Below, piece after piece: positions 7,418-62,214 of a stretch of DNA of 64,000 nucleotides; within the stretch, counting starts at the first letter, position 1, and each line of letters starts with the position of its first letter. The DNA is from Ignavibacteria bacterium. Lineage in GTDB: Bacteria > Bacteroidota > Ignavibacteria > Tepidaquicellales > OLB5. A program made the position numbers and the translations under genes. The notes under the pieces were generated by a model. It searched no databases, was not told the DNA's origin, and saw only the letters and a program-made list of their open reading frames with translations. The stretch lies in the NCBI GenBank assembly GCA_017303675.1, contig JAFLBX010000002.1, positions 957,642-1,021,641 on the forward strand, read 5' to 3'.

Positions 7418-7437
7418 AGTAAAATTCATCAAGCTAT

Positions 7438-8109
7438 ATGCCAAAAGTGAAGCTTCAAACGGATAATATTAAGGAATGTTTGATAGTATCACATGGCAAA
7501 TTAGTAAAGAGTGACTTAAACTATATATTAAAATTTATTAAGCCCCGTAAGGCATTATTTATAATTGCCTGTGACGGGGCTTCTGAATTTCTGAAAGCCA
7601 GCAGTATCACCCCCGATGTAATTATAGGCGATCTTGATTCCATAAAACCCGCAGTCCTGAAATATTTTTCAAGGAAAAATGTCGTAATAAAAAAAGTATA
7701 TGACCAGAATAAGAACGACCTTGAAAAAGCTATCATTTATGCCCTATCGAAAAAATTCAAGCATATAAATATTATCGGTTTTGGCGGCAAAAGGCTGGAC
7801 CATACTCTGAACAATCTGAGTATACTTAAAAAATTTTACCTTAAGGCTGATATTAGAATATTTGATAATGGTTTCGAAGGTAAAATAATTAACAGGATTG
7901 TTGAAATTGATTGCCGTATTGGTGATACAGTATCACTGATCCCATTACCTGAAGCTGCAGGCATTACTACCAGCGGATTAAAATACCCATTAAAAAACGG
8001 CTCGCTTGAAATTGGAATTCGTGAAGGAGCGTTAAATGAAGCTGTTGCTGAAAAGGTTTCGGTAGAGATTAAATCAGGTGTATTGCTTGTATTAAATAAA
8101 TCTACTTAA
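7438..8109 (+). CDS. thiamine pyrophosphokinase
   Basis: Carries the ACDGAS...IIGDLDSI...DQNKNDLEKAI...GGKRLDH motifs of the TPK catalytic domain plus a C-terminal thiamine-binding-like domain. Confidence 0.75.
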   Translation: MPKVKLQTDNIKECLIVSHGKLVKSDLNYILKFIKPRKALFIIACDGASEFLKASSITPDVIIGDLDSIKPAVLKYFSRKNVVIKKVYDQNKNDLEKAIIYALSKKFKHINIIGFGGKRLDHTLNNLSILKKFYLKADIRIFDNGFEGKIINRIVEIDCRIGDTVSLIPLPEAAGITTSGLKYPLKNGSLEIGIREGALNEAVAEKVSVEIKSGVLLVLNKST

Positions 8110-15005: not shown

Positions 15006-15233
15006 GTCATACCCGCGAAGGCGGGTATCCAGACTATTATTTCAGTAAATACAAAAACTCAGGAATTATGACTATAGCAAATAAGTTTTTTATAACCTTC
15101 TCTTTTTTGAAATAGTTGTAAGGAGTTTCTGCTTATCTTAATGAAGAAGTCACATTCTATAAAATTATCGTATTTCAAAGATCCACTTTTCAGCTTAAAT
15201 CAATTACTAGATACCCGCCTTCGCGGGTATGAC
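15006..15233. mobile_element. MITE-like element: 24-bp perfect terminal inverted repeats around a 180-bp AT-rich core
   Basis: gtcatacccgcgaaggcgggtatc at 15006-15029 has its exact reverse complement at 15210-15233. Each end is itself a hairpin. Confidence 0.45.
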
Positions 15234-51346: not shown

Positions 51347-54300
51347 TTAATCCCCCTCAACAATCTTTATTTCTTCTTCGGTTAAGCCGTAAAGCTCGTA
51401 AACCAACCGGTCAATCTGGCGGTCAAGTGCGTTGCTCTTATTTTCGTAAAAGGTTTTATCTTTGTCTGTGTTTACTCGGTTTAAAACTGATTTGGTTTTT
51501 ATCAAATTATCAACATTCTCAATAATAGCATAATAGATGTTTTTATTTTCATCCTTAATATTCTTAATTTTTAACCTTCCAAAATATTGTTTTGTACATG
51601 TAACCCACCCGCCCCTGAAAATATTACTTATATTTCTCAGGTACCAAAATAATAACTTTGAATTAATAAGACCTAATACGTATTTCTCTGAATAATTCTG
51701 ATTTAAAACAGTAATACTAAAACCTCCGCTTGCCATCAAACAATATTTCGAATTGCCCGATATTAGCGAAAAAGATCCTTTCTCTGCCAAAAGAGGAATT
51801 AGGATTTGAGAGTTTTCATGCAATTTCAAATTTCTAGGAGCGCTATAACTATACCATTCTTTGAATTGTTTTCTCTTTTTTAGCTGCAATTTGTTCTGTA
51901 TTAAATACTTGTATGCATTTGGGAATCTTTCATTCAATTCAGCCTCACCAATTAACTCAAAACCATCATTTATGAAATAATATGGAAAAATTATCCTAAA
52001 TGTATTTATAGGGTTGAATAAATATCTTTTGAAGTCTGTTGCAAATATTGGGACCCTACTGATTTCTGCTTCAATGTTATTTTTTGTAAATTCCGATTCA
52101 TCAAGCATAAAGATCTTATCATTACCCGAAGATGACCCCCTACTTATTTCACAAGGTAACTGTAATAATTCTGTTGTATTTAATTCTAATTTTTCAATAA
52201 TGCTCTTGAATTTTAAATTTTCGAATTCCCATTCAGTACCTATTTCTGAAATATCATAAGTAATGTATTCAATCTTATCCTCTCTTAAATTCGAAACACT
52301 TGGTTTAGAGAACCTAAATGAGTTTGTGCTCTTTTTTTGCAAAACTATAATTGACGTATAAGTAGTTGCATTTACGAATATTTGTTGTTGTCTAAAATCC
52401 AAAATTGTATTTAGAAGATTACCTGCATATATGAATTTTCGAATATTTTCTCCATAGTCAGTAGTAAAAAATTTATTAGGCACAATAAAACTAGTTAACC
52501 CTCTTTGATTAATGCTATATATAGCTTTTTCGATAAAAACTACATACAAATCATAATTGCCCGATTTGGCTGAAAGATAATATTTTTTCAAATAATCTGC
52601 AATTTTGGGTGTGGTTTCTTTGAAAATTTGAATTCTAACATACGGCGGATTACCAACAATTGCATCAAATCCACCATTTTTCATAATAGCAGGAAAGGCA
52701 TCTTCAAAGTTCATTGCGTTAATTTTCTTTTCTTCTTCTTCAGACCACCCCGTCGCTTCGCGCCACCCCTCCTTGGCAAGGAGGGGAGCGTCGTTTGTAT
52801 AAATATCAGTACCAATTAATGAGTTACCGCAGATAATATTTTTGCTCAGGTCAGGCAGGATCTTTTCTTTAAACATTGCCTGCATTTCGTTTGCAGTTGC
52901 AAGGGTTTCATCTTCAAGCAGCTTTAAATAAAGTGAAAGCTGGGTTACTTCAACTGCCTGGTGATCAATATCAACTCCGTAAACATTATTAAGGAGAATC
53001 TGCCTTTTCTGTTTTAGTGAAAGTACCCACAAGCCATTACTGAAAATACAGCCGTCAGCTTTTGCTTCCTTAGGGTTTAGCTGGTAATACTTTGAGTGAT
53101 ACCTGAGAAGAGTATCGTAAACGGTAATTAAAAATGAACCGCTTCCGCAGGAAATATCGGCAAACCTAAGCTTTGATATTTCAGCAGGTGTTTTACCTTC
53201 GATAAGCTTGCCTACAGTGTTATCAACAATATACTGGACAATATACTGCGGAGTGTAATAAACGCCGCCGGCTTTGCGAACTTCGGGTTTTTCTTCAATG
53301 GTAACACGTTTATCTGTAGCGTGAACTACCTTACCCAGGAAGCGCTCATATATGCTGCCTAATATGTGAATCGGGATCGAGTTAAAGTTATACGGCGAGT
53401 TAATATGAGAAAGCTCTTTGCAAATATCCTCAAAGTCTTTGTCATCAGGGACAATTGCTGTGTTAGACCCCCTTTGTATTTCCCCATTGTTAAGTGGGAG
53501 TCGATCGATGAAATGCTCTTTAAATACGATACCGTTATACTTAGCATTGAGCGAGCGGCAGTCAGCAATGAAATCACCCCATGCTGTGCCTTTATCTCCA
53601 TATGTGCTTATATGATGCTCGCCTTCTATCAGCATATCTTCGAGGAAACGGATAAATACAAGGCGGTCAATTGTCCGCTGGGTTGCCTCGGTTAATTCTT
53701 CACTTGTAAGCGCGGGGTTTTTCTTTTTGAAAGAGCGGGCAAGGGTATTTCTGATCTCATCGAGCTCTTCAAGGAATGATTCATCAATGCTCTGGTATGA
53801 ACCGGGGAACAAGCCTTTTTGCACGGCTTTGCCGCGCGGCTTCGGCATTGTTTCGGCAAATTTTTCTATTGAGCCTGATTCAACCGCTTCACGGGAAAAG
53901 AGGTAATACAGCTTAGAGAATTTTTCCTTATCGGTATATTCAGTGTAATGGAAGCTTAAAACTTTCCGTTCTTTGGTATATTTTATATCAGGCTTATAAC
54001 GTGAATCCAGAATATGGAATTCTTCGAAATCAGTGAGGACAACAAGCGGAGTTTGGGCATTCCATCCGTAACGTATCGCCTGGAAGGAATCATATGGATT
54101 GGCAAGTGAGCGGGAGGGTTTTTTAGCTTCAACATAAAATTTGGGGTCACGGTAATTTGGTGAAAGGAAAAAAGCGTAATCAGCGCGTTTTTGGGTTTCT
54201 TTATCTTTTACACGGCGTTCTACTTTTACTTCCTGCTCGTAAGGATTTTTCTGGTGTTCATGGTTTACGTCCCATCCCAGGGCAATGAACAGCTTATCTA

Positions 54301-54415
54301 TGAAATCAAGCCTTGCCTGGGATTCAGAGTAATCAGAGGCCAGGTAATGTTTTTCGTTGGCGTTAAAATCGTTTACAAGTTTTTCAATTAAGCTGTATGC
54401 AGATTCAAGGGACAT
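51347..54415 (-). CDS. type IIG restriction-modification enzyme (fused PD-(D/E)xK nuclease, gamma-class N6-adenine methyltransferase, TaqI-like specificity domain; Eco57I-like)
   Basis: The N-terminal nuclease motif is ADYAFFL...FYVEAKKP. The AdoMet motif I is ADISCGSGSFL and motif IV is IVGNPPYV. The C-terminal LINSKLLFWYLRNISNIFRGGWVTCTKQYFGRLKI is TaqI_C-like. The 1022-aa ORF is intact. Confidence 0.85.
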   Translation of the reverse strand: MSLESAYSLIEKLVNDFNANEKHYLASDYSESQARLDFIDKLFIALGWDVNHEHQKNPYEQEVKVERRVKDKETQKRADYAFFLSPNYRDPKFYVEAKKPSRSLANPYDSFQAIRYGWNAQTPLVVLTDFEEFHILDSRYKPDIKYTKERKVLSFHYTEYTDKEKFSKLYYLFSREAVESGSIEKFAETMPKPRGKAVQKGLFPGSYQSIDESFLEELDEIRNTLARSFKKKNPALTSEELTEATQRTIDRLVFIRFLEDMLIEGEHHISTYGDKGTAWGDFIADCRSLNAKYNGIVFKEHFIDRLPLNNGEIQRGSNTAIVPDDKDFEDICKELSHINSPYNFNSIPIHILGSIYERFLGKVVHATDKRVTIEEKPEVRKAGGVYYTPQYIVQYIVDNTVGKLIEGKTPAEISKLRFADISCGSGSFLITVYDTLLRYHSKYYQLNPKEAKADGCIFSNGLWVLSLKQKRQILLNNVYGVDIDHQAVEVTQLSLYLKLLEDETLATANEMQAMFKEKILPDLSKNIICGNSLIGTDIYTNDAPLLAKEGWREATGWSEEEEKKINAMNFEDAFPAIMKNGGFDAIVGNPPYVRIQIFKETTPKIADYLKKYYLSAKSGNYDLYVVFIEKAIYSINQRGLTSFIVPNKFFTTDYGENIRKFIYAGNLLNTILDFRQQQIFVNATTYTSIIVLQKKSTNSFRFSKPSVSNLREDKIEYITYDISEIGTEWEFENLKFKSIIEKLELNTTELLQLPCEISRGSSSGNDKIFMLDESEFTKNNIEAEISRVPIFATDFKRYLFNPINTFRIIFPYYFINDGFELIGEAELNERFPNAYKYLIQNKLQLKKRKQFKEWYSYSAPRNLKLHENSQILIPLLAEKGSFSLISGNSKYCLMASGGFSITVLNQNYSEKYVLGLINSKLLFWYLRNISNIFRGGWVTCTKQYFGRLKIKNIKDENKNIYYAIIENVDNLIKTKSVLNRVNTDKDKTFYENKSNALDRQIDRLVYELYGLTEEEIKIVEGD
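52766..52786. repeat. perfect 9-bp-stem palindrome inside the R-M coding sequence
   Basis: cccctccttggcaaggagggg sits within a roughly 50-nt patch of about 70% GC (52744-52793). The patch encodes ...PLLAKEGWREATGWSEE... in frame. Confidence 0.8.
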
Positions 54416-54555: not shown

Positions 54556-54663
54556 CACCCTCTTTTCAAATATCAAATAACAAAGAACAAATAGCAATGA
54601 AAAAATCAATTGCTTAAGTATTCAGGGAAGTTGGTTTGGGTTTGAGGAGTTTTAGTGATTAAT

Positions 54664-54905
54664 GAGATTGCTTCGCTTTCGCTTGCAATTTATATATTTT
54701 TCTTGTGACCCCCACTCCACGAGTCAAGGACTCGGTAGAGTCATAGACCAACTCCCCCTGCAAGGGGGAGAGTGACTATGTTTGCCCTACGATTTCGCTA
54801 GCAAAGCTTCTGCAGCAGGCGCGGCTTGCCCGCCTGGATTTATTTATTCATCAAAAGCAGACCTCCCCTAATGCCGCTGGCTTGACCAAGCGGGACGTTT
54901 CTACA
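54664..54905. repeat. composite repeat block B-C (right flank of island, same orientation as the left copy)
   Basis: It shares two identical runs with 47486-47560: atttttcttgtgacccccactccacgagtcaa (32 nt) and gactcggtagagtcatagacc (21 nt). It also shares gcaggcgcggcttgcccgcctggatttat and catcaaaagcagac. Confidence 0.85.
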
Positions 54906-55011
54906 ACAATTTTCGTCTAGATCCTTCGACGAAGTTTATCCCGCAAAATTTTTTGCGGGACTCAGGATGACATGGATTAAAGCTTACGTATAGATTACAA
55001 GAACATGTGTT

Positions 55012-55300
55012 GTCATTCTGAACGAAGCGAAGCGGAGTGAAGTCACGCAGTGCTCTTCTACATCTAGACGATTTTTTACAATGCTACCGACTCATTTGGA
55101 ATTCCCTCCGCTCGCAAAATTATTATGGGCTTCTGCAGCAGGTGCGGCTTGTCCGCCTGGATTTATTCATTCATCAAAAGCAGACGTCCCAGCGGGACGT
55201 CTATACAGAGGCAAAATTTTTATTTTTCTTGTGACCCCCTCTCCACGAGTCAAAGACTCGGTAGAGTCATAGACCTGCTCCCCCTGCCAGGGGGAGAGTC
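55012..55300. repeat. composite repeat block A-C'-B' (rearranged third set)
   Basis: Module A is at 55012-55084 (gtcattctgaacgaagcgaagcggagtgaagtcacgcagtgctcttctacatctagacg). A shortened C is at 55125-55205 and B at 55210-55300. Confidence 0.85.
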
Positions 55301-55302
55301 AA

Positions 55303-56985
55303 TTACTGCATCTTGGCGGATTTGAGGATGATGGTGTTGAGGCCATCGATATACATATCGCGGACCTTTTTGCTCTTTAAATAAACAACCTGGTTGTAAT
55401 ATAAAATTACCCATGGCGCATCTTCGAGCACGATCTCTTCCATTTGGTTATAAAGTTTTGCGCGGGTGTTAAAATCGGTAAGGCGCATTGCAAGCTCATA
55501 TAATGAATCAGCCGCCATGTTTTGATAATGCGTGTAATTGGGTCCGGCCGGTGAGTGGTTTTTGCTGTAAAAAAGCGCCATGAAGTTTTCGGGGTCAAAA
55601 TAATCAGCGCCCCAGTTGCCGCGCCAGAAGTTAAGCTCTCCCCCGACCTGTGATGAGCGCATGGTTGATGCCTGCATAAAATCAAGCTGGGCATCTATTC
55701 CAAGATCGCGAAGCTGCGCCTGCACTGATTCCCCAATAAGCTTCTGTGTATCATCATTTGATACCACAAGCTTAAGCGTTAATCCTTTTCCATCGTGGTA
55801 ACCGGCTTCGCTGAGGAGCTGTTTGGCTTTGGCAGGATCAAAGCTGTAGCCTTTGAGCTCTTTGTTATAGCCCGGCATGCCGGGCGGGATGGGTCCGTTA
55901 ACCCCGGGTGTGCCGCGGAACTTCAGCACATAGCTGATAATTTTCTGGCGGTCGATGGCGTAGTTTATCGCCTGGCGAAGCTTGCGGTTATCTGAAAGGA
56001 CGTTGTTCTTTCCGCCGGGTACATTTTTATCAAGCTGTATTCCAAGGTAAACCGTATTAAGCCATGGCTGTTTGATAAGCTCAAACTCCTTTGTGTATTC
56101 AGGCTTAAGCGCTCCGGTTTCATCGGTTATCTGGCTTAATACTTCGGGAGAAGGTTCGTAGTATTCAAACCTTCCCTGCTGGAAATCGAGGAATGCGGTT
56201 TCACTGGATTTGATGAAGCTTACTTTGATGCCATCAAGATATACAAGCGGCTTGCCTGCTTTATTCAGGCTCCAGTAATTGGGATTTTTTGTCATTTCAA
56301 GCTCGCGGTCAACTTCCCACTTAACGAATTTAAAGGGTCCCGTGCCAACCGGGTTATAGCCGAAGTTATCTTTGTAGAACTCAACGGCTTCTTTGGGGTA
56401 AACAAATGAATACGGCATTGTAAGTATGCTCAAAAACGGCGCGAACGGTTTTGTGAGCGTAATGATAAGCGTTGTATCATCCGGCGCCTGGATGCCCGTT
56501 ATTTCTTTTACGTTGTTGTGTTTTTCTTTGATTGATGTTATGAACTCAAGTGCGCCTTTAACCTTATCGCGGAAAAGCCATGCCCCGCGTGTTTTGGTGG
56601 ATGGGTCACACACACGCTCAAAGCAGTATTTGAAATCAGAGGCTTTCACTTCCCTGCCTTTTCCGTCCGGGAAGCATTGGTTATCGTGGAAGAAAACCCT
56701 TTTGCGGATTGTGAATGTATAGGTCAGTCCGTCATCTGATATTTTGTATGATGAAGCAAGATTTGGCTCAAGGTTCATTTCACGGGAGTATTCCAGAAGA
56801 CCTTCGGTCATTTGCTGCAGCGGCCAGCCGGCAGCAAAGTTGCTGCACATAATGGGGTCAAGATTTTCTATCCCCTGCGCTTCGTTATACCTGAAAATAT
56901 TTTCAGAGGTTTCTTTTTTTGAGCAGGAGGTGAGGAGAATTGAACCAATAAAAAATAAGCAATATAAAATTAGTCTGATCTTCAT
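55303..56985 (-). CDS. ABC transporter substrate-binding lipoprotein, family 5 (peptide/nickel, OppA/DppA-like)
   Basis: Lipobox LLTSC and a YNPVGTGPFKFVKW signature. 560 aa. No permease or ATPase genes are adjacent. Confidence 0.85.
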   Translation of the reverse strand: MKIRLILYCLFFIGSILLTSCSKKETSENIFRYNEAQGIENLDPIMCSNFAAGWPLQQMTEGLLEYSREMNLEPNLASSYKISDDGLTYTFTIRKRVFFHDNQCFPDGKGREVKASDFKYCFERVCDPSTKTRGAWLFRDKVKGALEFITSIKEKHNNVKEITGIQAPDDTTLIITLTKPFAPFLSILTMPYSFVYPKEAVEFYKDNFGYNPVGTGPFKFVKWEVDRELEMTKNPNYWSLNKAGKPLVYLDGIKVSFIKSSETAFLDFQQGRFEYYEPSPEVLSQITDETGALKPEYTKEFELIKQPWLNTVYLGIQLDKNVPGGKNNVLSDNRKLRQAINYAIDRQKIISYVLKFRGTPGVNGPIPPGMPGYNKELKGYSFDPAKAKQLLSEAGYHDGKGLTLKLVVSNDDTQKLIGESVQAQLRDLGIDAQLDFMQASTMRSSQVGGELNFWRGNWGADYFDPENFMALFYSKNHSPAGPNYTHYQNMAADSLYELAMRLTDFNTRAKLYNQMEEIVLEDAPWVILYYNQVVYLKSKKVRDMYIDGLNTIILKSAKMQ

Positions 56986-57145
56986 AATTTTTTTTAGCTG
57001 CAGGTCACAAGACCTGCAGCGGGGTATTTTTGTTAATTTATTTTAACAGGCAAAGATATGGCTTTATAGGGAAAGATAAAATTTAAATAAATGTTCAGAT
57101 TTGAGTTTCGTATTTCATAGATTTTGCTCTGAAAAAAACTTTATG

Positions 57146-57173
57146 TCTGGATTCCCGCTTTCGCGGGAATGAC
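57146..57173 (-). repeat. REP-like hairpin (GTCATTCCCGCGAAAGCGGGAATCCAGA)
   Basis: Read directly from the sequence. It lies between two copies of a 21-nt direct repeat, agggaaagataaaatttaaat, at 57068-57088 and 57192-57212. Confidence 0.8.
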
Positions 57174-57542
57174 GCGTGGATATGCTTTTACAGGGAAAGA
57201 TAAAATTTAAATTTTTTTCTTTGAAGAATGGAACACTGATGAAACGGATGAAGCGGATATATACGGATTAAATAATTTATTAATAAGATAAGAATGATGA
57301 GAATTTAAATCTGATGAATCAAACGGAATAGTAAACTACTTTAGATCTTAATCTATGGGCTCAATATTATAAGCCTAAAAATGTAATTTGTGTATGTTAT
57401 AGTATTTAACTAATTTCATAACCCAAATACATTAGAAATTTCATGAAAAAGCCGATTTTGGCGTTATTTAATATACCAGATTTCGGTTAGGGAATTATTG
57501 TAGCTGAACTTTATATTTGTTGAAATAACAATCAAACATTCA

Positions 57543-58016
57543 ATGCTTCAGACTGTACAAAAGAACATATTCATATATAAATTTCTCAGCGGGTTAACGC
57601 CTGTTGGGTTCAGCAAATATACGCTGTGTTACGTATCATTTAAGCCGCGTGCCGGCAGCGGGTATTTTGGTGTAGCTGAAGGTGATGAGTTCCGCGAGAA
57701 GCTTGAAGGAAAAATTGTAATTAAAGCTTGGAAAGAGCTGCCGGGGAAATTCCCGATCTGTATACTTGGCGATTACTCCATAACTCCTGATACATTCAGC
57801 GGAATAATTATGATAGATAATTCCCAGGCGCTTGATAACCCGAAAAAGTATATTCCAAAAATACTTTCGGCTTTCAAGAACCGCTCGACACTTCTGCTTA
57901 ACCAGTTCCACGGAACACACGGCAGGGTTTTCTGGGAAAATGCTTATGATGAAATTACAATAGACAGTGTTGAATCATTCAACAAAGCTTTGAATCTGCT
58001 AAAGAAAGAAAATTAA
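57543..58016 (+). CDS. REP-associated tyrosine transposase (RAYT / IS200-Y1)-like protein with degenerate HUH motif
   Basis: GKIVIKAWKELPGKFPICILGDYSITPDTFSGIIMI parallels the family pattern G..V...W.EL...FP.I.LDEFV.MPNH.H.I. RVFWENAYDEITIDSVESFNKALNLL parallels LWQRNYYEHIIRNE..L.RI..YI. The H-x-H is replaced by T-F-S. This match is recalled from memory and was not searched. Confidence 0.5.
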   Translation: MLQTVQKNIFIYKFLSGLTPVGFSKYTLCYVSFKPRAGSGYFGVAEGDEFREKLEGKIVIKAWKELPGKFPICILGDYSITPDTFSGIIMIDNSQALDNPKKYIPKILSAFKNRSTLLLNQFHGTHGRVFWENAYDEITIDSVESFNKALNLLKKEN

Positions 58017-58079
58017 AATTTTATTGGGTTAATTACAGGATTAAATATCATGCAGTGAAAAAAGGGCGTCCGGTAGGCG

Positions 58080-58370
58080 CTCTTTATTTTGTTGTTTTAA
58101 AAATGTTAGGGGCTAAAGCCCATATTTGAGTGGAGGTACGCTGCCCACGGTCTAAAGACCGTGGCTATTTTCTAAAAGCGGCTCCTCCTGTCACTCCCGC
58201 GGAGTGATTTCCCCCGCTTAAAACAAGACTGTTGTTTCGAAGAGGAGGGAAAAAATGTGCTTCGACGAAGTTTATCCCGCAAAATTTTTTGCGGGACTCA
58301 GCACGACAAGGATTGTTTGAATACCCTTTGACTCACTACTGAGGCCGTCGAAACACTCAGGGTGAGATAT
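58080..58370. repeat. cluster of short GC-rich hairpins (BIME-like)
   Basis: Hairpins include ggggctaaagccc, ccacggtctaaagaccgtgg and cactcccgcggagtg. The segment cgacgaagtttatcccgcaaaattttttgcgggactcag is also found at 54927-54965. Confidence 0.7.
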
Positions 58371-58371
58371 T

Positions 58372-59661
58372 TTAAACTGTTCTGAGTTTTATTATAGCTT
58401 CGGTGCCCTCATTCAGCTTGCTTGTGATATTCAGCTCGCCTTTATGCGCATCGATAATTTTTTTGCAGATGGAAAGTCCAAGTCCGAAGCCGCCCGTGCG
58501 GCGTGAACGGGACCTATCAGCGCGGTAGAAGGGCTCAAAGATATTTTTAATATCTTCTTCCGGAATTCCGCTGCCGGTATCCTTAAAGCTGATGAAGGCT
58601 TCGCCTTTTTGTTCGGTGATACTTATTATTACATCATTCTGTGAATACTTCAGCGCATTATCTATGAGGTTCCTGAAGACCACCTGCATTTTATCCATAT
58701 CGATATTGCAGTATATTTCCTTAGCGGGATTTGTGAACTTCAGCCGGGAGTTCTCATCATATTCAGCGATGGTCTCATCCAGAAGCTCTGTAACATCAGC
58801 CTTTTCAGGCTTGATATGGTTGAACCCTGAATCAGCGCGGTAATTTTCAAGCAGCCCGGTTATCATACGCTCCATTTCAAGCACATCTTCTTCTATCTTT
58901 TCTTTTGATGAGCCAACTTCGAGTCCAAGCTTAATGCGCGTAAGCGGCGAGCGCAGCTCGTGTGATACATCTATCAATAGCTGTTCCTTATTCTTAATAG
59001 AGCTGTTGATCTTATCAGACATTACGCCGATTGAATCGGCAAGTTCGCCAAGCTCATCCTTCCTGCCTTTTGGCAGCTTCACATCATAGTTGCCTTCGCC
59101 AATGCTTACCACAGCAGCAGAGAGGTCCTTCAGCGGACTGAAGAGGCTGCGCAGAAGGAAATAAAGAATTACAATAATTACGCTGATAAATAAAATCAGC
59201 ATTAAAATTGCACGTTCAGGTTTAAATAGCTGGGGGTTAAAAGGTTTTATCACAAATACACCTTGCGGGAATCTGATGACTGAATACGGCTCGCCATCAT
59301 GGTGAGCTATAATGGACTCATTATCATCAAAACGCGCCCTGTCACCCGGATCGCTTAATATTGCATTAATATCAGGAAGCTCATCATTTGATGACCAGTT
59401 ATAGGGTGAGCCGATATATCTCATTTCAATATCGAGGTCATCGCATATCTGTTTGGCTTTAACGGTATCAGGCGGTATGCCGATTTCATAAACCAAATGG
59501 CGCTCCATTCGCCGTGAAAAATCACGAAGGAACTTTCTAGGCTTTTTATCTGAGGTTGCTTCGAATACAAAGAGCACAATTATATTCAGTAAAATACCGA
59601 ATACAAAAACTACCAGTATCAGCTTCAGGAATATCGATAAGTTGGGTGTTTTAAATTTCAA
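58372..59661 (-). CDS. sensor histidine kinase (CpxA/EnvZ-like: 2 TM, HAMP, HisKA, HATPase_c)
   Basis: H-box SHELRSPLT, N-box FRNLIDNALKY and G-boxes DTGSGI / GGFGLGLSI. Confidence 0.85.
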   Translation of the reverse strand: MKFKTPNLSIFLKLILVVFVFGILLNIIVLFVFEATSDKKPRKFLRDFSRRMERHLVYEIGIPPDTVKAKQICDDLDIEMRYIGSPYNWSSNDELPDINAILSDPGDRARFDDNESIIAHHDGEPYSVIRFPQGVFVIKPFNPQLFKPERAILMLILFISVIIVILYFLLRSLFSPLKDLSAAVVSIGEGNYDVKLPKGRKDELGELADSIGVMSDKINSSIKNKEQLLIDVSHELRSPLTRIKLGLEVGSSKEKIEEDVLEMERMITGLLENYRADSGFNHIKPEKADVTELLDETIAEYDENSRLKFTNPAKEIYCNIDMDKMQVVFRNLIDNALKYSQNDVIISITEQKGEAFISFKDTGSGIPEEDIKNIFEPFYRADRSRSRRTGGFGLGLSICKKIIDAHKGELNITSKLNEGTEAIIKLRTV

Positions 59662-59679
59662 TTAAAAATGCTCCGCATT

Positions 59680-60384
59680 TTATTTTTTCACCTCGTCTAA
59701 AAAGAACATATAACCGATGCTGTGCACGGTTTTAATTACCTGTTCCTTATCCTTTTTGCTGCCAAGCGATTTGAACTTATTACGAAGGCGTGAAACCATA
59801 ACATCAACTGAGCGGTCAAAGCTCATCCATGATATTCCGCGAGTGTTCTGCATGATCTCATCACGTGAGAGCACCTTGCCGTTATTCTTAACGAAAAGCA
59901 GCAGCAGCTCATATTCAGTTGAAGTAAGCTCCATATCTTTTCCGTGGTATGAAGCTGAGCGTTTATTGGGGTCAACAACCAGGTCCTTTAGCAGGATATT
60001 TTCATTTTTTTTCAGCTTAAGCTCGCTGCGGCGCAGCACTGATTGTATCCTTGCAAGCAGCTCACGCGGCTCAAACGGTTTTGGAAGGTAATCATCAGCG
60101 CCAAGCTCAAGCCCAACAACTTTATCGGTAACCTCTCCCCTTGCGGTCAGCATCACAACGGGGGTTTCGTGGTCTTTTCTTATCTGCTTAACAGTTTCAA
60201 AGCCGTCCATATCAGGAAGCATGACATCGAGTATGATAAGGTCATAGTGGTTGTTCTTTAACTTGACAAGGCCATCCTTCGGATTTTCGACCGCCGTAGT
60301 GATAAAATTGTTCTTACCGAGGTATTCCTCGAGCAGCTCATTGAGCTTGTTATCATCATCTATTATAAGTATCGATTTGGACAT
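59680..60384 (-). CDS. OmpR-family response regulator (CpxR-like)
   Basis: ILIIDDD...LDVMLPDMDG...MLTARGEVTDKVVGLELGADDYLPKPFEPRELLARIQSVLRR plus a winged-helix C-terminus. Confidence 0.9.
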   Translation of the reverse strand: MSKSILIIDDDNKLNELLEEYLGKNNFITTAVENPKDGLVKLKNNHYDLIILDVMLPDMDGFETVKQIRKDHETPVVMLTARGEVTDKVVGLELGADDYLPKPFEPRELLARIQSVLRRSELKLKKNENILLKDLVVDPNKRSASYHGKDMELTSTEYELLLLFVKNNGKVLSRDEIMQNTRGISWMSFDRSVDVMVSRLRNKFKSLGSKKDKEQVIKTVHSIGYMFFLDEVKK

Positions 60385-60494
60385 ATTATATTAATTGATC
60401 TTTCTAATTACCTTCATTTTTTGGCGCAAATAAAAGGGGAATACCGGAAGATTTCTGAAAAGTAAGTATTGTAAAAAAACGAACACTTTTTAAA

Positions 60495-60518
60495 GATTCC
60501 TGCCTTCGCAGGAATGAC
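60495..60518 (-). repeat. REP-like hairpin (GTCATTCCTGCGAAGGCAGGAATC)
   Basis: Read directly from the sequence. Same GTCATTC...GAATC frame as the other copies. Confidence 0.8.
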
Positions 60519-60632
60519 AAATTACTTTTAAGAAAATCTCTGATGCTCCCCCAATACTTTAAAAATACATATCATTAAACAGAGTTTCTATCTAAAAATA
60601 CTTTAATTAAATTCAGGTAGTTGGTTGTTTTA

Positions 60633-60800
60633 CCGCAGCCGCAGGCTTTTAGCCTGCAAATTCAGGGCGCAGCCTGAAGGCTGCGGCTACAGATAATTTA
60701 AAAAATTACGTTAATGAAGCTGCCGCAGGCTTTAGCCTGTGAATTTAGGGCGCAGCCTGAAGGCTGCGGCTACAGATAATTAAAAAATCATGTTAATGAA
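60633..60800. repeat. tandem duplication (period about 84 bp, 2 copies) of a double-hairpin unit
   Basis: ccgcaggcttt(t)agcctgYRaatttagggcgcagcctgaaggctgcggctacagataatt...gttaatgaa occurs at 60639-60718 and 60723-60800. Confidence 0.85.
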
Positions 60801-60833
60801 AATGAATTTTCAAACCAACCCACTACTAATTAT

Positions 60834-61400
60834 TTATTGTTTACCGTCTTCCCGGTCCCGTTTATCTTTGCGTTCTTTTCTTTTTTCATGGAACTCTTTC
60901 ATTTTATCAACGGCTTTATTTCTTTGTTCAGGTGTTAAAATACTGTGGAACCTGGCTGTCTGGTCAAGCATAAAATTACGCATTTCATCGCGCTCAGCGT
61001 CATGCTGTTTCATCATATCAAGCGCTTTCTGTTTATCAAAAGTATCGCCGCGGAACATTTCCATCATTTCACCCATATCTTTTTTTCTGTCGGTTTTTTT
61101 GCTGTCCATCTTAAGCTGTATCTCTTCTTTAATCTTCATCACTTCGTTTTTCTGCTGCTCTGTGAGATCAAGATCCCTTAAAGCCATTTCCATGATCATA
61201 CCAAGCGGACCGTGAGGCCTGTGTTTATCATAATATCCTTTGGCAAAACCAAATCCGGCAATACCGGTGATTATAACAAGCACTAATACCGCGCTGATTA
61301 TAATAGTCTTCCTGCTTTTTTTATTCTTTTGGTTTTTTGATGAAGATGAAAGCTGGTCATTCAGCTCCGGCGGATTGTTGAATGTATTCATATCTGACAT
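60834..61400 (-). CDS. Spy/CpxP-family periplasmic protein (LTxxQ motifs)
   Basis: N-terminal TM/signal followed by LDLTEQQKNEVMKIKEE and LTPEQRNKAVDKMKEF (LTxxQ repeats). Confidence 0.65.
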   Translation of the reverse strand: MSDMNTFNNPPELNDQLSSSSKNQKNKKSRKTIIISAVLVLVIITGIAGFGFAKGYYDKHRPHGPLGMIMEMALRDLDLTEQQKNEVMKIKEEIQLKMDSKKTDRKKDMGEMMEMFRGDTFDKQKALDMMKQHDAERDEMRNFMLDQTARFHSILTPEQRNKAVDKMKEFHEKRKERKDKRDREDGKQ

Positions 61401-61689: not shown

Positions 61690-62214
61690 TTATCTGAAGT
61701 TTTTCATCTGCTTGTATAATGATTTCAGCTTATCAACAGCATCATTTCTTTGCTGAGATGTCATTAAACTATGCAGCTTTTCAAGCTCATCAACCATATA
61801 CACAGCAAGATCCCTGTTTTCGGAATCCTGTAAGTTAGCAATTCTCATAGCTTCGTTCCTGTCATACTGCTCAGCCCTGAAGAGGGCTTCGATATCCTTA
61901 CCGCCGGTTACATGAGTAACTTTGCGGTTTTCAAGCTTTGCATTCAGATCGTTCTTAATTTTCATGACTTCAGTTTTTTGCTGCTCATTCAGGTTAATTT
62001 CGCCGGCGACCTGTTCAACCAGCTTGCCGTATGGGTCATCCTGCAATCCCGTAAAAGCATAACTGATAATAGACGTTCCGGTGGCAATTACAGCAGCGAG
62101 CAATAACCCGGTTAAAACGAACATTAATCCCGGTTTCCTTTTTTGGGTGCGGCCTTTATTAATGTGCTCATTCATTAATGGACCCGACCCTTTGTTTTCT
62201 TGGTGCGTTCTCAT
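61690..62214 (-). CDS. Spy/CpxP-family periplasmic protein (paralog)
   Basis: INLNEQQKTEVMKIKNDL and MTSQQRNDAVDKLKSL in the same layout as 60834-61400. The start may be ATG 62175. Confidence 0.6.
   Translation of the reverse strand: MRTHQENKGSGPLMNEHINKGRTQKRKPGLMFVLTGLLLAAVIATGTSIISYAFTGLQDDPYGKLVEQVAGEINLNEQQKTEVMKIKNDLNAKLENRKVTHVTGGKDIEALFRAEQYDRNEAMRIANLQDSENRDLAVYMVDELEKLHSLMTSQQRNDAVDKLKSLYKQMKNFR

What the first reader, a model, noticed from the sequence alone, without database searches (positions are those of the whole stretch)
57058..58370. RAYT-like (REP-associated tyrosine transposase) ORF with a lost HUH motif, embedded among REP-like hairpins
The 157-aa ORF at 57543-58016 aligns by eye to the widespread short Y1/IS200-like 'transposase' family in two places. 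GKIVIKAWKELPGKFPICILGDYSITPDTFSGIIMI corresponds to G..V...W.EL...FP.I.LDEFV.MPNHIHGI. RVFWENAYDEITIDSVESFNKALNLL corresponds to LWQRNYYEHIIRNE..L.RI..YI.

The two metal-binding histidines (H-x-H) are replaced by T-F-S, while a Tyr at the catalytic position is retained.

A GTCATTCCCGCGAAAGCGGGAATC hairpin lies upstream at 57146, inside a 124-bp direct duplication (21-nt identical ends at 57068 and 57192). A roughly 290-bp cluster of GC-rich hairpins lies downstream at 58080-58370.

The whole window is dense in REP-like elements. This ORF may therefore be a decayed or domesticated copy of the enzyme that spread them. Alternatively, it may be a non-catalytic REP-binding protein.
Basis: partly seen in the sequence, partly recalled or inferred. 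Interest (0 to 1): 0.65.

Follow-up and report, generated by a model that had tools for sequence, protein, structure and literature searches.

The report
Catalytically dead, domesticated RAYT-like gene

Summary
ORF 57543-58016(+) gets no Pfam or NCBIfam hit, even at E<=10. Its family profile nevertheless reaches thousands of canonical RAYT/TnpAREP proteins. Profile-profile probability is 99.8% (E 6e-29). The AlphaFold model's 30 best PDB matches are all IS200/IS605 TnpA or E. coli RAYT.

All 78 family members have x-F-[S/C/T/N] in place of H-U-H. The true catalytic Tyr (E. coli Y115, motif YIxNNP) aligns with Leu152. The C-terminal helix (alphaD) ends without the NP metal-ligand motif.

The gene is not decaying. 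Against sibling strains it shows 10 synonymous and 0 non-synonymous differences, and dN/dS is below about 0.1 where it can be estimated. It is single-copy in all 19 species-representative Ignavibacteria/Chlorobiota MAGs recovered. In 27 of 27 loci it sits tail-to-tail with a Cpx-like HK-RR-LTXXQ operon.

The flanking REP-like hairpins are incidental. The upstream hairpin lies in a 124-nt insertion absent from four sibling contigs, and no hairpin is conserved around the gene. In sibling contigs a paralog with HUH and Tyr, carrying its own GTAG-type REPs, starts about 110 nt beyond the window end.

Most likely function, inferred only: a non-cleaving binder of hairpin or single-stranded nucleic acid.

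The parts
57543..58016 (+). Gene for a 157-aa catalytically dead RAYT-like protein (HUH/RRM-like fold)
   Evidence: ORF. 78 full-length homologs. AF2 model with pLDDT 83.7 and pTM 0.79. Foldseek top 30 hits are all IS200/IS605 TnpA or RAYT 4er8. hhalign 99.8% to canonical RAYTs. Purifying selection.
57792..57800 (+). Former HUH motif, now T84-F85-S86 (codons ACA TTC AGC)
   Evidence: Aligns with H(98%)-U-H(98%) of 115 canonical relatives and with E. coli H59/H61. All 78 family members have x-F-[S/C/T/N].
57996..57998 (+). Leu152 codon at the position of the catalytic tyrosine (E. coli Y115; YIxNNP motif). The protein ends 5 residues later without the N-P motif.
57945..57947 (+). It is the first Y of the W-Q-R-N-Y-Y motif before strand beta4, not the nucleophile.
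   Evidence: It is Phe in a minority of family members (84% Tyr).
57840..57947 (+). Helix alphaC plus the alphaC-beta4 loop (residues 100-135). This is the most conserved part of the family (K102, F111, K112, R114, S115, L118, N120, H123, H126, R128, W131, N133).
   Evidence: Conservation by element. In E. coli TnpAREP, alphaB and alphaC form the REP-hairpin binding face (PMC3479197).
57089..57212 (.). 124-nt strain-specific insertion. Its boundaries are ambiguous by 34 nt because of the flanking direct repeats 57055-57088 and 57179-57212.
   Evidence: Absent from sibling contigs L001-L004, which are otherwise collinear. Repeats.
57150..57173 (-). CGTC-tagged REP-like hairpin: cgTC-ATTCCCGC-GAAA-GCGGGAAT-Ccagac
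   Evidence: Member of a tagged hairpin family with compensatory stem changes, 19 copies in 367 kb of Ignavibacteria DNA.
58061..58085 (+). Terminator-like hairpin plus T-run, 45 nt after the ORF stop. Probably the gene's terminator.
   Evidence: Conserved in sibling contigs, with one substitution in the stem (58065) and one in the T-run just after it (58086).
58260..58314 (+). Hairpin module (CTTCGACGAAG ... TCCCGCAAAATTTTTTGCGGGA) that replaces different sequence in sibling strains. A second copy lies at 54924-54978.
58372..61400 (-). Convergent Cpx-like operon that always accompanies the gene: HAMP/HisKA histidine kinase (58372-59661), OmpR-type response regulator (59680-60384), LTXXQ/CpxP-like protein (60834-61400).
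   Evidence: Pfam. Same arrangement in 27/27 loci, down to 45% ORF identity.

Best explanation
Shown:
- The ORF encodes a vertically inherited, single-copy descendant of a REP-associated tyrosine transposase. Its nearest canonical relatives carry the NH[FIV]H / WQ / YIxNNP signature of TnpAREP subclass 2.4 (Bertels group 4).
- It keeps the HUH-endonuclease fold: a four-stranded sheet, helices alphaB and alphaC on one face, and alphaD on the other.
- It has lost every residue that makes the enzyme cut and rejoin single-stranded DNA. Both metal-binding His are replaced (T84, S86). The nucleophilic Tyr is Leu152. The alphaD Asn-Pro metal-ligand motif is missing because the protein ends there.
- It is maintained by strong purifying selection across the class Ignavibacteria, at a fixed chromosomal position tail-to-tail with a Cpx-like two-component operon.
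- Conservation has moved away from the old active site. AlphaD is now among the least conserved elements. AlphaB, alphaC and the alphaC-beta4 loop are the most conserved, and the protein stays basic.

Inferred:
- It works as a non-cleaving binder of hairpin or single-stranded nucleic acid (DNA or RNA), using the face that RAYTs use to grip REP hairpins.
- It may recognise REP-like stem-loops or compete with active RAYTs.

Consequence for the finding:
- The REP-like hairpins beside it in this window are recent, strain-specific insertions and are not part of the gene's system.
- A paralog that retains HUH and Tyr lies about 6 kb downstream in sibling strains, flanked by its own GTAG-type REPs.
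For: Homology:
- The family profile reaches 3816 proteins. The canonical ones are PF01797/NF047646.
- A canonical-only HMM hits the ORF at E=8e-21. hhalign gives 99.8%.
- The AF2 model matches only Y1 transposases at E<=1e-3.
- The motifs of the relatives match subclass 2.4.

Loss of catalytic residues:
-, together with Y115/H59/H61/N119 from PMC3479197.

Selection and inheritance:
-. There are 19 species representatives, all Ignavibacteria/Chlorobiota, one locus each.
- Synteny holds in 27/27 loci.

Shift in conservation:
- Family conservation is alphaB 0.84, alphaC 0.82 and W-loop 0.86, against alphaD 0.60. In canonical proteins Tyr/Asn/Pro of alphaD are 0.88-0.94 conserved.
- Median family pI is 9.2.
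- In E. coli TnpAREP, alphaB and alphaC form the hairpin-binding face.

Hairpins are incidental:
-.

Paralog with HUH and Tyr:
- L001:11805-12302 has H81, H83 and Y161, and scores 24.4 bits on PF01797 against a cut-off of 23.
- Its relatives are embedded in GTAG-AGACG...CGTCT REPs upstream, inside and downstream of the gene.
Against: - There is no direct evidence of nucleic-acid binding.
- Residue-level mapping of E. coli DNA-contact residues onto the ORF differs between alignment methods. Only the element-level argument holds.
- No hairpin or other DNA motif is conserved next to the gene that could be its ligand.
- Family-specific invariant residues (E55, E65, C73, D92, H123, H126) could instead mark a new catalytic or metal site, or a protein-protein interface.
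- The N-terminal 25 residues are conserved but modelled with low confidence.
- The conserved neighbourhood with the two-component operon is convergent, so it is not co-transcribed. It may reflect only a stable genome region.
- Whether the window's own genome carries the intact paralog is unverified, because the window ends about 110 nt before its expected start.
Confidence: 0.6

Rival explanations
1. The protein is still an enzyme. It would have rebuilt an active site from new residues (for example invariant H123/H126 as metal ligands and Y135 as nucleophile) and would still process REP-like DNA.
For: - H123 and H126 are invariant and family-specific.
- Y135 is 84% conserved.
- N133 and D92 are invariant.
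- Strong purifying selection.
Against: - Y135 is Phe in several members, which is incompatible with a nucleophile.
- H123/H126 sit at the far end of alphaC and in the loop before beta4, away from the beta3 site that carried HUH (secondary structure).
- AlphaD, which delivers the nucleophile in all Y1 enzymes, is truncated and poorly conserved.
- No REPtron-like flanks.
Confidence: 0.08
2. It is a decaying pseudogene or remnant of the transposase that once spread the local REPs.
For: - All catalytic motifs are lost.
- No Pfam or NCBIfam hit.
- REP-like hairpins lie on both sides in this window.
Against: - 10 synonymous and 0 non-synonymous differences against four sibling contigs, and dN/dS at or below about 0.1 against other species where dS is estimable.
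- An intact reading frame of 154-166 aa in nearly all of the 78 homologs, with 20 invariant residues in the 36-sequence alignment.
- The same genomic position in 27/27 loci.
- The adjacent hairpins are recent insertions.
Confidence: 0.02
3. The HUH fold has been recruited for a function unrelated to nucleic acids. It could be a protein-protein adaptor or small-molecule binder, perhaps connected to the neighbouring Cpx-like envelope-stress system.
For: - Invariant linkage to the HK-RR-LTXXQ operon in every locus.
- Many family-specific invariant acidic and Cys residues.
- No conserved DNA ligand nearby.
Against: - The genes are convergent, with a spacer of 0-669 nt, so they are not co-transcribed.
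- Further neighbours (NUDIX, ribD) are also syntenic, so the linkage may be passive.
- The protein has no signal peptide or domain typical of envelope signalling. This is read from the sequence and was not tested.
- The protein remains basic (pI about 9), and the retained shared residues (W63, F111, K112, S115, N120, W131) are those common to DNA-binding RAYTs.
Confidence: 0.2
4. It is a dominant-negative regulator or 'immunity' factor. It would occupy REP hairpins or RAYT target sites without cutting and so restrain active RAYT paralogs. This is a specific version of the best explanation.
For: - Active-type RAYT paralogs and at least two REP classes coexist in the same genomes.
- Half-degenerate paralogs (x-F-H, Tyr or Phe at the catalytic position) occur in the same MAG as the dead gene.
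- E. coli TnpAREP is itself auto-inhibited and down-regulated (abstract of PMC3479197).
Against: - The dead gene is present in every recovered Ignavibacteria locus, whereas the canonical RAYT was seen in only 2 of 30 loci. Its maintenance therefore does not obviously depend on an active partner, although only about 12 kb per genome was examined.
- There is no experimental evidence.
Confidence: 0.1

Closest known systems
RAYT / TnpAREP subclass 2.4 of Quentin et al. 2018 (= Bertels group 4; PF01797 Y1_Tnp, NCBIfam NF047646)
   Same: - Detectable sequence homology over 142 columns (hhalign 99.8%).
- Same fold and size.
- Shared invariant W63, F111-K112, S115, N120 and W131.
- Low copy number.
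- Found in the Chlorobi-related lineages where group 4 is common.
   Different: - Lacks both His of HUH, the catalytic Tyr and the N-P of YIxNNP.
- AlphaD is truncated.
- No variable insertion or REP insertion after beta3.
- No flanking REPs.
- Fixed chromosomal position across a class rather than a patchy distribution.
- Not recognised by the curated Pfam or NCBIfam models.
E. coli TnpAREP (YafM; PDB 4ER8)
   Same: - Structural match: Foldseek E=1.8e-4, TM about 0.5, 129 columns.
- Conserved basic alphaB/alphaC elements that bind the REP hairpin in 4ER8.
   Different: - E. coli H59, H61, Y115 and N119 correspond to T84, S86, L152 and E156 here, and H123 and E161 have no counterpart.
- Subclass 2.2 rather than 2.4.
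- The E. coli gene sits in a REPtron.
IS200/IS605 TnpA (IS608, ISDra2, Sulfolobus IS200)
   Same: Best structural matches: E 1e-5 to 1e-4, TM 0.5-0.68.
   Different: - No HUH and no Y...Q motif.
- Single copy.
- No subterminal hairpins and no tnpB partner.
- Not mobile.
TnpAY1 sequences lacking HuH/Y motifs that Quentin et al. 2018 set aside as probably non-functional (for example 5 of 10 class 3 members)
   Same: Y1-fold proteins without the catalytic motifs.
   Different: Those were treated as defective copies and were not analysed. This family is demonstrably under purifying selection, syntenic and class-wide, so it is functional. No paper found in three literature searches describes such a clade.
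CGTC-tagged REPs (Di Nocera et al. 2013). This applies to the upstream hairpin, not to the ORF.
   Same: - A short perfect palindrome with a conserved 5' (C/T)GTC tag.
- Intergenic and multi-copy.
- Compensatory stem variation.
- Reported in Chlorobi and Bacteroidetes.
   Different: - Most copies here carry TGTC rather than CGTC.
- Copy number in a whole genome was not measured.
- The literature says this class has no dedicated transposase.

Membership tests
RAYT / TnpAREP (Y1 HUH transposase superfamily) | HUH-endonuclease fold (RRM-like four-stranded sheet, alphaB/alphaC on one face, alphaD on the other) | tested here: met
   AF2 model, pLDDT 83.7, with topology b1-hairpin-aB-b2-b3-aC-b4-aD. 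All 30 Foldseek PDB hits with E<=1e-3 are Y1 transposases, including 4er8.
RAYT / TnpAREP (Y1 HUH transposase superfamily) | Significant match to the curated family models (PF01797, NF047646) | tested here: not met
   No hits even at E<=10. The family profile also finds no PDB sequence.
RAYT / TnpAREP (Y1 HUH transposase superfamily) | Common ancestry shown by profile methods | tested here: met
   Canonical-only HMM hits the ORF at E=8e-21. hhalign 99.8%, E=5.7e-29. 31/40 sequences linked by the profile search hit PF01797 and NF047646.
RAYT / TnpAREP (Y1 HUH transposase superfamily) | His-hydrophobic-His metal-binding motif on beta3 | tested here: not met
   T84-F85-S86. 0 of 78 family members have His at either position.
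RAYT / TnpAREP (Y1 HUH transposase superfamily) | Catalytic Tyr on alphaD in the class 2 signature Y---NP | tested here: not met
   Leu152 at the Tyr column. The protein ends before the N-P motif.
RAYT / TnpAREP (Y1 HUH transposase superfamily) | REPtron arrangement: gene flanked by its cognate REPs | tested here: not met
   No hairpin is conserved around the gene in 21 loci, and the spacer is 0-669 nt. The hairpins in this window are strain-specific insertions. By contrast, the canonical paralog lineage is flanked and interrupted by GTAG-AGACG REPs.
RAYT / TnpAREP (Y1 HUH transposase superfamily) | Single copy, vertical inheritance (the 'domesticated' behaviour of RAYT groups 2 and 3, Bertels 2017) | tested here: met
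   One locus per species-representative genome, 19 genomes. Identical synteny in 27/27 loci. No second copy in the window.
RAYT / TnpAREP (Y1 HUH transposase superfamily) | Mn2+-dependent ssDNA cleavage and strand transfer at REPs | not testable with these tools
   Needs biochemistry. Predicted absent from the loss of all catalytic residues.
IS200/IS605 insertion sequence | Multi-copy element with subterminal hairpins, Y---Q motif, often a tnpB partner | tested here: not met
   Single copy. No conserved terminal hairpins. No Y---Q motif. Neighbours are SBP_bac_5 and a histidine kinase.
CGTC/GTAG-tagged REP (for hairpin 57150-57173) | Short palindrome with a conserved tetranucleotide tag, repeated in intergenic DNA, structure preserved by compensatory changes | tested here: met
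   4 copies in the window within 3 mismatches, against 0 expected. 19 copies in 367 kb, mostly with a (T/C)GTC tag, in four compensatory stem variants. Insertion polymorphism between strains. Whole-genome copy number was not measured.

The most novel reading that the evidence does not exclude
Ignavibacteria have exapted a RAYT into a class-wide, catalytically dead host factor that recognises tagged REP hairpins without cutting them. One possible ligand is the (C/T)GTC-tagged REP class, for which no dedicated protein is known. The factor might control REP-dependent termination or mRNA stability, or restrain active RAYT paralogs. The half-degenerate paralogs (x-F-H, Tyr or Phe) in the same genomes would be intermediate steps. 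This would be the first functional pseudo-enzyme lineage of the Y1 HUH transposases.
Probability: 0.15. Interest if true: 0.75.

Novelty: new variant of a known kind. Interest (0 to 1): 0.5.

Why it matters
RAYTs are the textbook case of bacterial transposases that look domesticated, yet every described group keeps an intact HUH/Tyr centre. Sequences without it have been discarded as defective.

This family shows that the fold can be kept for tens of percent of sequence divergence, at one chromosomal site, after all catalytic residues are gone. Selection must therefore act on something other than DNA cleavage, most plausibly the hairpin-binding face.

That gives a clean natural separation-of-function variant for asking what RAYTs do for their hosts. 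It also gives a candidate protein partner for REP classes that have no known enzyme. Finally, it is a reminder that curated models (PF01797, NF047646) miss such lineages: all members are annotated as 'hypothetical protein'.

If the protein binds nothing, it is simply one more conserved hypothetical gene with an interesting ancestry.

Tried and rejected
Searches that found nothing:
- Direct Pfam, NCBIfam and PDB sequence searches with the ORF.
- Family profile against PDB sequences: only chance hits, E>0.2.
- Rfam on the whole window: only two tRNAs, nothing near the ORF.
- Six-frame HMM scan of the window for an intact or second Y1 paralog: none in these 64 kb.
- Exact-match metagenome scan with the last 41 nt of the window, to read past the window end in the same strain: no match.
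- Three literature searches for HUH-less or inactive Y1/RAYT families: none described.

Ideas tested and dropped:
- Reading the '124-bp duplication' as a tandem duplication. Only 34 nt are repeated, and the 124 nt are an insertion relative to sibling strains.
- Treating the 90-nt insert as a high-copy element. BLAST of the locus against the window found no other full copy, and only a short resemblance near 15181 was seen by eye.
- Residue-by-residue transfer of E. coli TnpAREP DNA-contact residues. hmmalign and MAFFT disagree in alphaC, so only element-level statements are made.
- The GTAG-AGACG REP class as abundant in this window. Only one clean copy was found, at 55182-55202.
- A new metal site formed by C73/D92 together with H123/H126. 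This is judged unlikely from helix geometry only. No coordinates were available to measure distances.
Full report
THE OBJECT

The ORF at 57543-58016(+) encodes 157 aa. It lies between a divergent SBP_bac_5 gene (55303-56985, minus strand) and a convergent histidine-kinase gene (58372-59661, minus strand). An AT-rich 557-nt spacer lies upstream and a GC-richer 355-nt spacer downstream.

Direct searches gave nothing:
- Pfam and NCBIfam returned no hit even at E<=10.
- PDB sequences gave only a chance match.

IS IT A GENE?

Yes. A search of 5.8 billion proteins found 78 homologs. Nearly all are 154-166 aa, with identity running from 100% down to 46%. None has a Pfam domain. The few that carry a source name come from Ignavibacteria or Chlorobi MAGs and are called 'hypothetical protein'. 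An alignment of 36 of them has 20 invariant and 23 nearly invariant columns.

Selection is strongly purifying:
- Against four sibling contigs that encode the identical protein, the gene has 10 synonymous and 0 non-synonymous differences.
- Against other species, dS is saturated while dN is 0.09-0.5. dN/dS is 0.04-0.18 wherever it can be computed.

The 'decayed copy' reading is therefore excluded.

IS IT RELATED TO RAYTs?

Yes, beyond reasonable doubt, although curated models cannot see it.

- A profile of the family, searched against 1.84 billion representative proteins, found 3816 proteins at E<=1e-3.
- The hits beyond the family carry P[ND]H[FIVLM]HGI, WQRNYYEHIIR and IReYIxNNP.
- Of 40 aligned sequences, 31 hit PF01797 (Y1_Tnp) and NCBIfam NF047646 (REP-associated tyrosine transposase).
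- An HMM built only from 30 HUH-bearing sequences hits the window ORF at E=8e-21, 69 bits, and hits nothing else in the six-frame translation of the window.
- Profile-profile comparison of the family with 37 canonical proteins gives 99.8% probability, E=5.7e-29, over 142 columns.
- The AlphaFold2 model (pLDDT 83.7, pTM 0.79) has the order b1, beta-hairpin, aB, b2, b3, aC, b4, aD.
- All 30 Foldseek PDB matches with E<=1e-3 are IS608, ISDra2 or Sulfolobus IS200 TnpA, or the E. coli RAYT 4er8.
- The motif triplet NH[FIV]H / WQ / YIxNNP is the signature of TnpAREP subclass 2.4 in Quentin et al. 2018 (Bertels group 4). That group is reported as common in Cyanobacteria, Chlorobia and Caldilineae.

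WHAT HAS BEEN LOST

In E. coli TnpAREP the active site comprises H59-M60-H61, the nucleophile Y115, and the alphaD ligands N119 and H123, plus E161 (PMC3479197). The mapping below comes from a joint alignment of 73 family members and 115 canonical proteins, supported by A2, an HMM alignment to 4er8, hhalign and MAFFT --add of the E. coli sequence.

| Canonical residue (conservation) | E. coli equivalent | Window ORF |
|---|---|---|
| His (98%) | H59 | T84; variable across the family |
| His (98%) | H61 | S86; S/C/T/N across the family |
| Tyr (94%) | Y115 | L152 |
| Asn (94%) | N119 | E156 |
| Pro (88%) | P120 | N157, the last residue |

- None of the 78 members has His at either HUH position.
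It is Phe in a minority of members.

The protein has lost the whole catalytic apparatus.

WHAT HAS BEEN KEPT

Conservation by structural element in the family:

| Element | Mean major-residue frequency |
|---|---|
| aB | 0.84 |
| b2 | 0.83 |
| b3 | 0.83 |
| aC | 0.82 |
| aC-b4 loop | 0.86 |
| b4 | 0.61 |
| aD | 0.60 |

- Residues shared with canonical RAYTs: G56, I58, W63, L75, G87, I88, F111, K112, S115, N120, G127, W131 and I140.
- Family-specific invariants: E55, K61, K64, E65, C73, D92, K102, R114, L118, H123, H126, R128 and N133.
- The proteins remain basic, with a median pI of 9.2.

In the E. coli RAYT-REP complex, the hairpin is held by a positive surface formed mainly by aB and aC, with aC lying in the minor groove. 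Selection in the dead family therefore acts on the elements that bind the hairpin in the active enzymes, not on the element that delivers the nucleophile. Residue-level transfer of the E. coli contacts was not reliable, because two alignment methods disagreed in aC.

GENOMIC BEHAVIOUR

- A scan of one genome per GTDB species found 19 loci, all in Ignavibacteria, Ignavibacteriales or Chlorobiota MAGs, one per genome.
- In all 27 loci examined, down to 45% identity, the gene is followed tail-to-tail by the same histidine kinase, OmpR-type regulator and LTXXQ/CpxP-like gene.
- The upstream neighbour varies: SBP_bac_5, SnoaL, AraC or a Por-tail protein.
- The spacer to the kinase gene ranges from an overlap to 669 nt, and no hairpin is shared across loci.

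The gene is thus a stable, vertically inherited chromosomal gene and is not part of a REPtron.

THE HAIRPINS NEXT TO IT

Upstream:
- The hairpin, read on the minus strand, is cgTC-ATTCCCGC-GAAA-GCGGGAAT-Ccagac at 57150-57173.
- It lies in 124 nt that are simply absent from four sibling contigs that are otherwise collinear.
- The insert is a unique 90-nt segment bounded by 34-nt direct repeats, 31/34 identical. This feature is not what Y1 transposition produces, and I cannot explain it.

Downstream:
- The cluster is strongly structured (z=-6.25) and mostly conserved among the sibling contigs.
- Within the 58260-58314 module, which has a second copy at 54924-54978, the portion from about 58268 to 58300 replaces different sequence in the siblings.

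The hairpin family:
- The ATTCC-type hairpin belongs to a tagged family with 19 copies in 367 kb of Ignavibacteria DNA.
- Most copies carry a 5' (T/C)GTC tag and a GNRA-like loop, in four compensatory stem variants.
- This matches the CGTC-tagged REP superfamily described in Chlorobi and Bacteroidetes, which 'apparently lack a dedicated transposase'.

Overall, the window has 22 perfect GC-rich hairpins, against 0-4 in simulations.

A PARALOG WITH HUH AND TYR

Scanning all fetched loci with the canonical HMM revealed a 165-aa gene in sibling contigs L001 (11805-12302) and L002, between the NUDIX and ribD genes.
- It has H81, H83 and Y161.
- It scores 24.4 bits on PF01797 against a cut-off of 23, and E=1.6e-13 on NF047646.
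- By collinearity it would begin about 110 nt past the end of the window. I could not confirm it for the window's own strain.
- It is preceded by ctGTAG-AGACGACCC-GGT-GGGTCGTCTC and interrupted by the same REP in reverse orientation. That intragenic REP is the hallmark of subclass 2.4. An ATTCCCGC hairpin follows the gene.
- Its relatives in metagenomes (31-72% identity) are likewise flanked by, and in several cases interrupted by, GTAG-AGACG...CGTCT REPs with compensatory inner stems.
- The L001 copy ends four residues after the Tyr and lacks the NP motif that its 72%-identical relative retains, so it may itself be impaired.

If any enzyme moves REPs in this genome, this lineage is the candidate, not the ORF in the finding.

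INTERMEDIATES

Between the dead family and the canonical proteins lies a small clade (P0082, P0085-P0087 and L028:7435).
- It has x-F-H, FWEN instead of WQRN, and Tyr or Phe at the catalytic column. Some members still end in NNP or KHP.
- It scores better with the dead-family HMM than with the canonical one (98-105 bits against 56-62 bits).
- It has its own conserved neighbourhood: RND efflux, then the gene, then SIMPL and IMPDH.
- It coexists with the dead gene in one MAG (JAKEEM01: L022 and L028).

This suggests duplication followed by stepwise loss of the active site within this phylum. I did not build a phylogeny to test that.

INTERPRETATION

Shown:
- Homology, fold, complete loss of catalytic residues, purifying selection, single copy, fixed synteny and the incidental nature of the adjacent hairpins.
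- The existence of a canonical paralog with its own REPs in sibling strains.

Inferred:
- The protein acts by binding hairpin or single-stranded nucleic acid without cleaving it.

Rivals:
- A rebuilt active site. This is unlikely, because Y135 tolerates Phe and aD is degenerate.
- A function unrelated to nucleic acids, possibly tied to the Cpx-like operon. This is possible, although the genes are convergent and the whole region is syntenic.
- A dominant-negative role against active RAYTs.

KNOWN OR NEW?

RAYT domestication is known (Bertels 2017), but with an 'identical catalytic centre'. Quentin et al. excluded sequences lacking HuH/Y as probably non-functional. Three full-text searches found no description of a conserved HUH-less, Tyr-less Y1 lineage.

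I therefore rate it as a new variant of a known kind, of moderate interest. The ancestry is now clear and the function is open and directly testable.

Noticed in passing
L001:11805-12302 and L002:8320-8817 (expected at about 64112 onward, just beyond the window end): Canonical subclass-2.4-type RAYT gene (HUH and Tyr present, C-terminus truncated after YIKNV), lying between the NUDIX and ribD genes. A GTAG-AGACGACCC REP lies upstream, the same REP is inserted inside the gene, and an ATTCCCGC hairpin lies downstream. Metagenomic relatives show the same REPtron pattern.
   Followed up: partly
window 57055-57212: The hairpin-bearing 90-nt insert is bounded by 34-nt direct repeats (31/34 identical, with the mismatches clustered in the first 13 nt). 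Y1/RAYT transposition is not expected to make such a duplication, so the insertion mechanism is unexplained.
   Followed up: partly
window 54600-55300: About 700 nt without ORFs, made of GC-rich hairpin modules. It contains 89-nt (54685/55211) and 62-nt (54806/55129) direct repeats, a GTAT-AGACGTCCC-GCT-GGGACGTCT REP at 55182-55202, and a module (54924-54978) that recurs at 58260-58314.
   Followed up: partly
window 60638-60800: Two tandem copies of an 83-nt unit rich in GC hairpins (GCCGCAGGC...GCCTGC, GCAGCCTGAAGGCTGC), between the response-regulator and LTXXQ genes.
   Followed up: no
window 15006-15233: Two TGTC-ATACCCGC-GAAG-GCGGGTAT hairpins in inverted orientation, 204 nt apart, between convergent genes. 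The arrangement is REPIN-like. The segment near 15181 resembles part of the 57089-57178 insert.
   Followed up: no
window 60495-60518 (and the same site in L001-L004 and L009): A TGTC-ATTCCTGC-GAAG hairpin fixed between the LTXXQ and response-regulator genes in several species. On the transcribed (minus) strand it lies within the operon, so it may act as an internal attenuator or RNA-stability element.
   Followed up: no
window 51347-54415 (-): 1022-aa Eco57I/MmeI-like type IIG restriction-modification gene (Eco57I, N6_Mtase, TaqI_C, HSDR_N domains). No such gene is called at the corresponding place in sibling contig L001, so it may be a strain-specific defence island.
   Followed up: partly
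window 61690-62214 (-): An extra 174-aa ORF resembling the LTXXQ/CpxP-like neighbour (no Pfam hit at E<=1e-3). It is absent from sibling contig L001, where DUF1028 follows directly.
   Followed up: no
L028:5001-5486 and 7435-7908; L030:5001-5510: A second clade of half-degenerate RAYT-like genes (x-F-H; Tyr or Phe at the catalytic column). Two copies occur in one Chlorobiota MAG that also carries the dead gene. The clade has its own conserved neighbourhood: RND efflux, then the gene, then SIMPL and IMPDH.
   Followed up: partly
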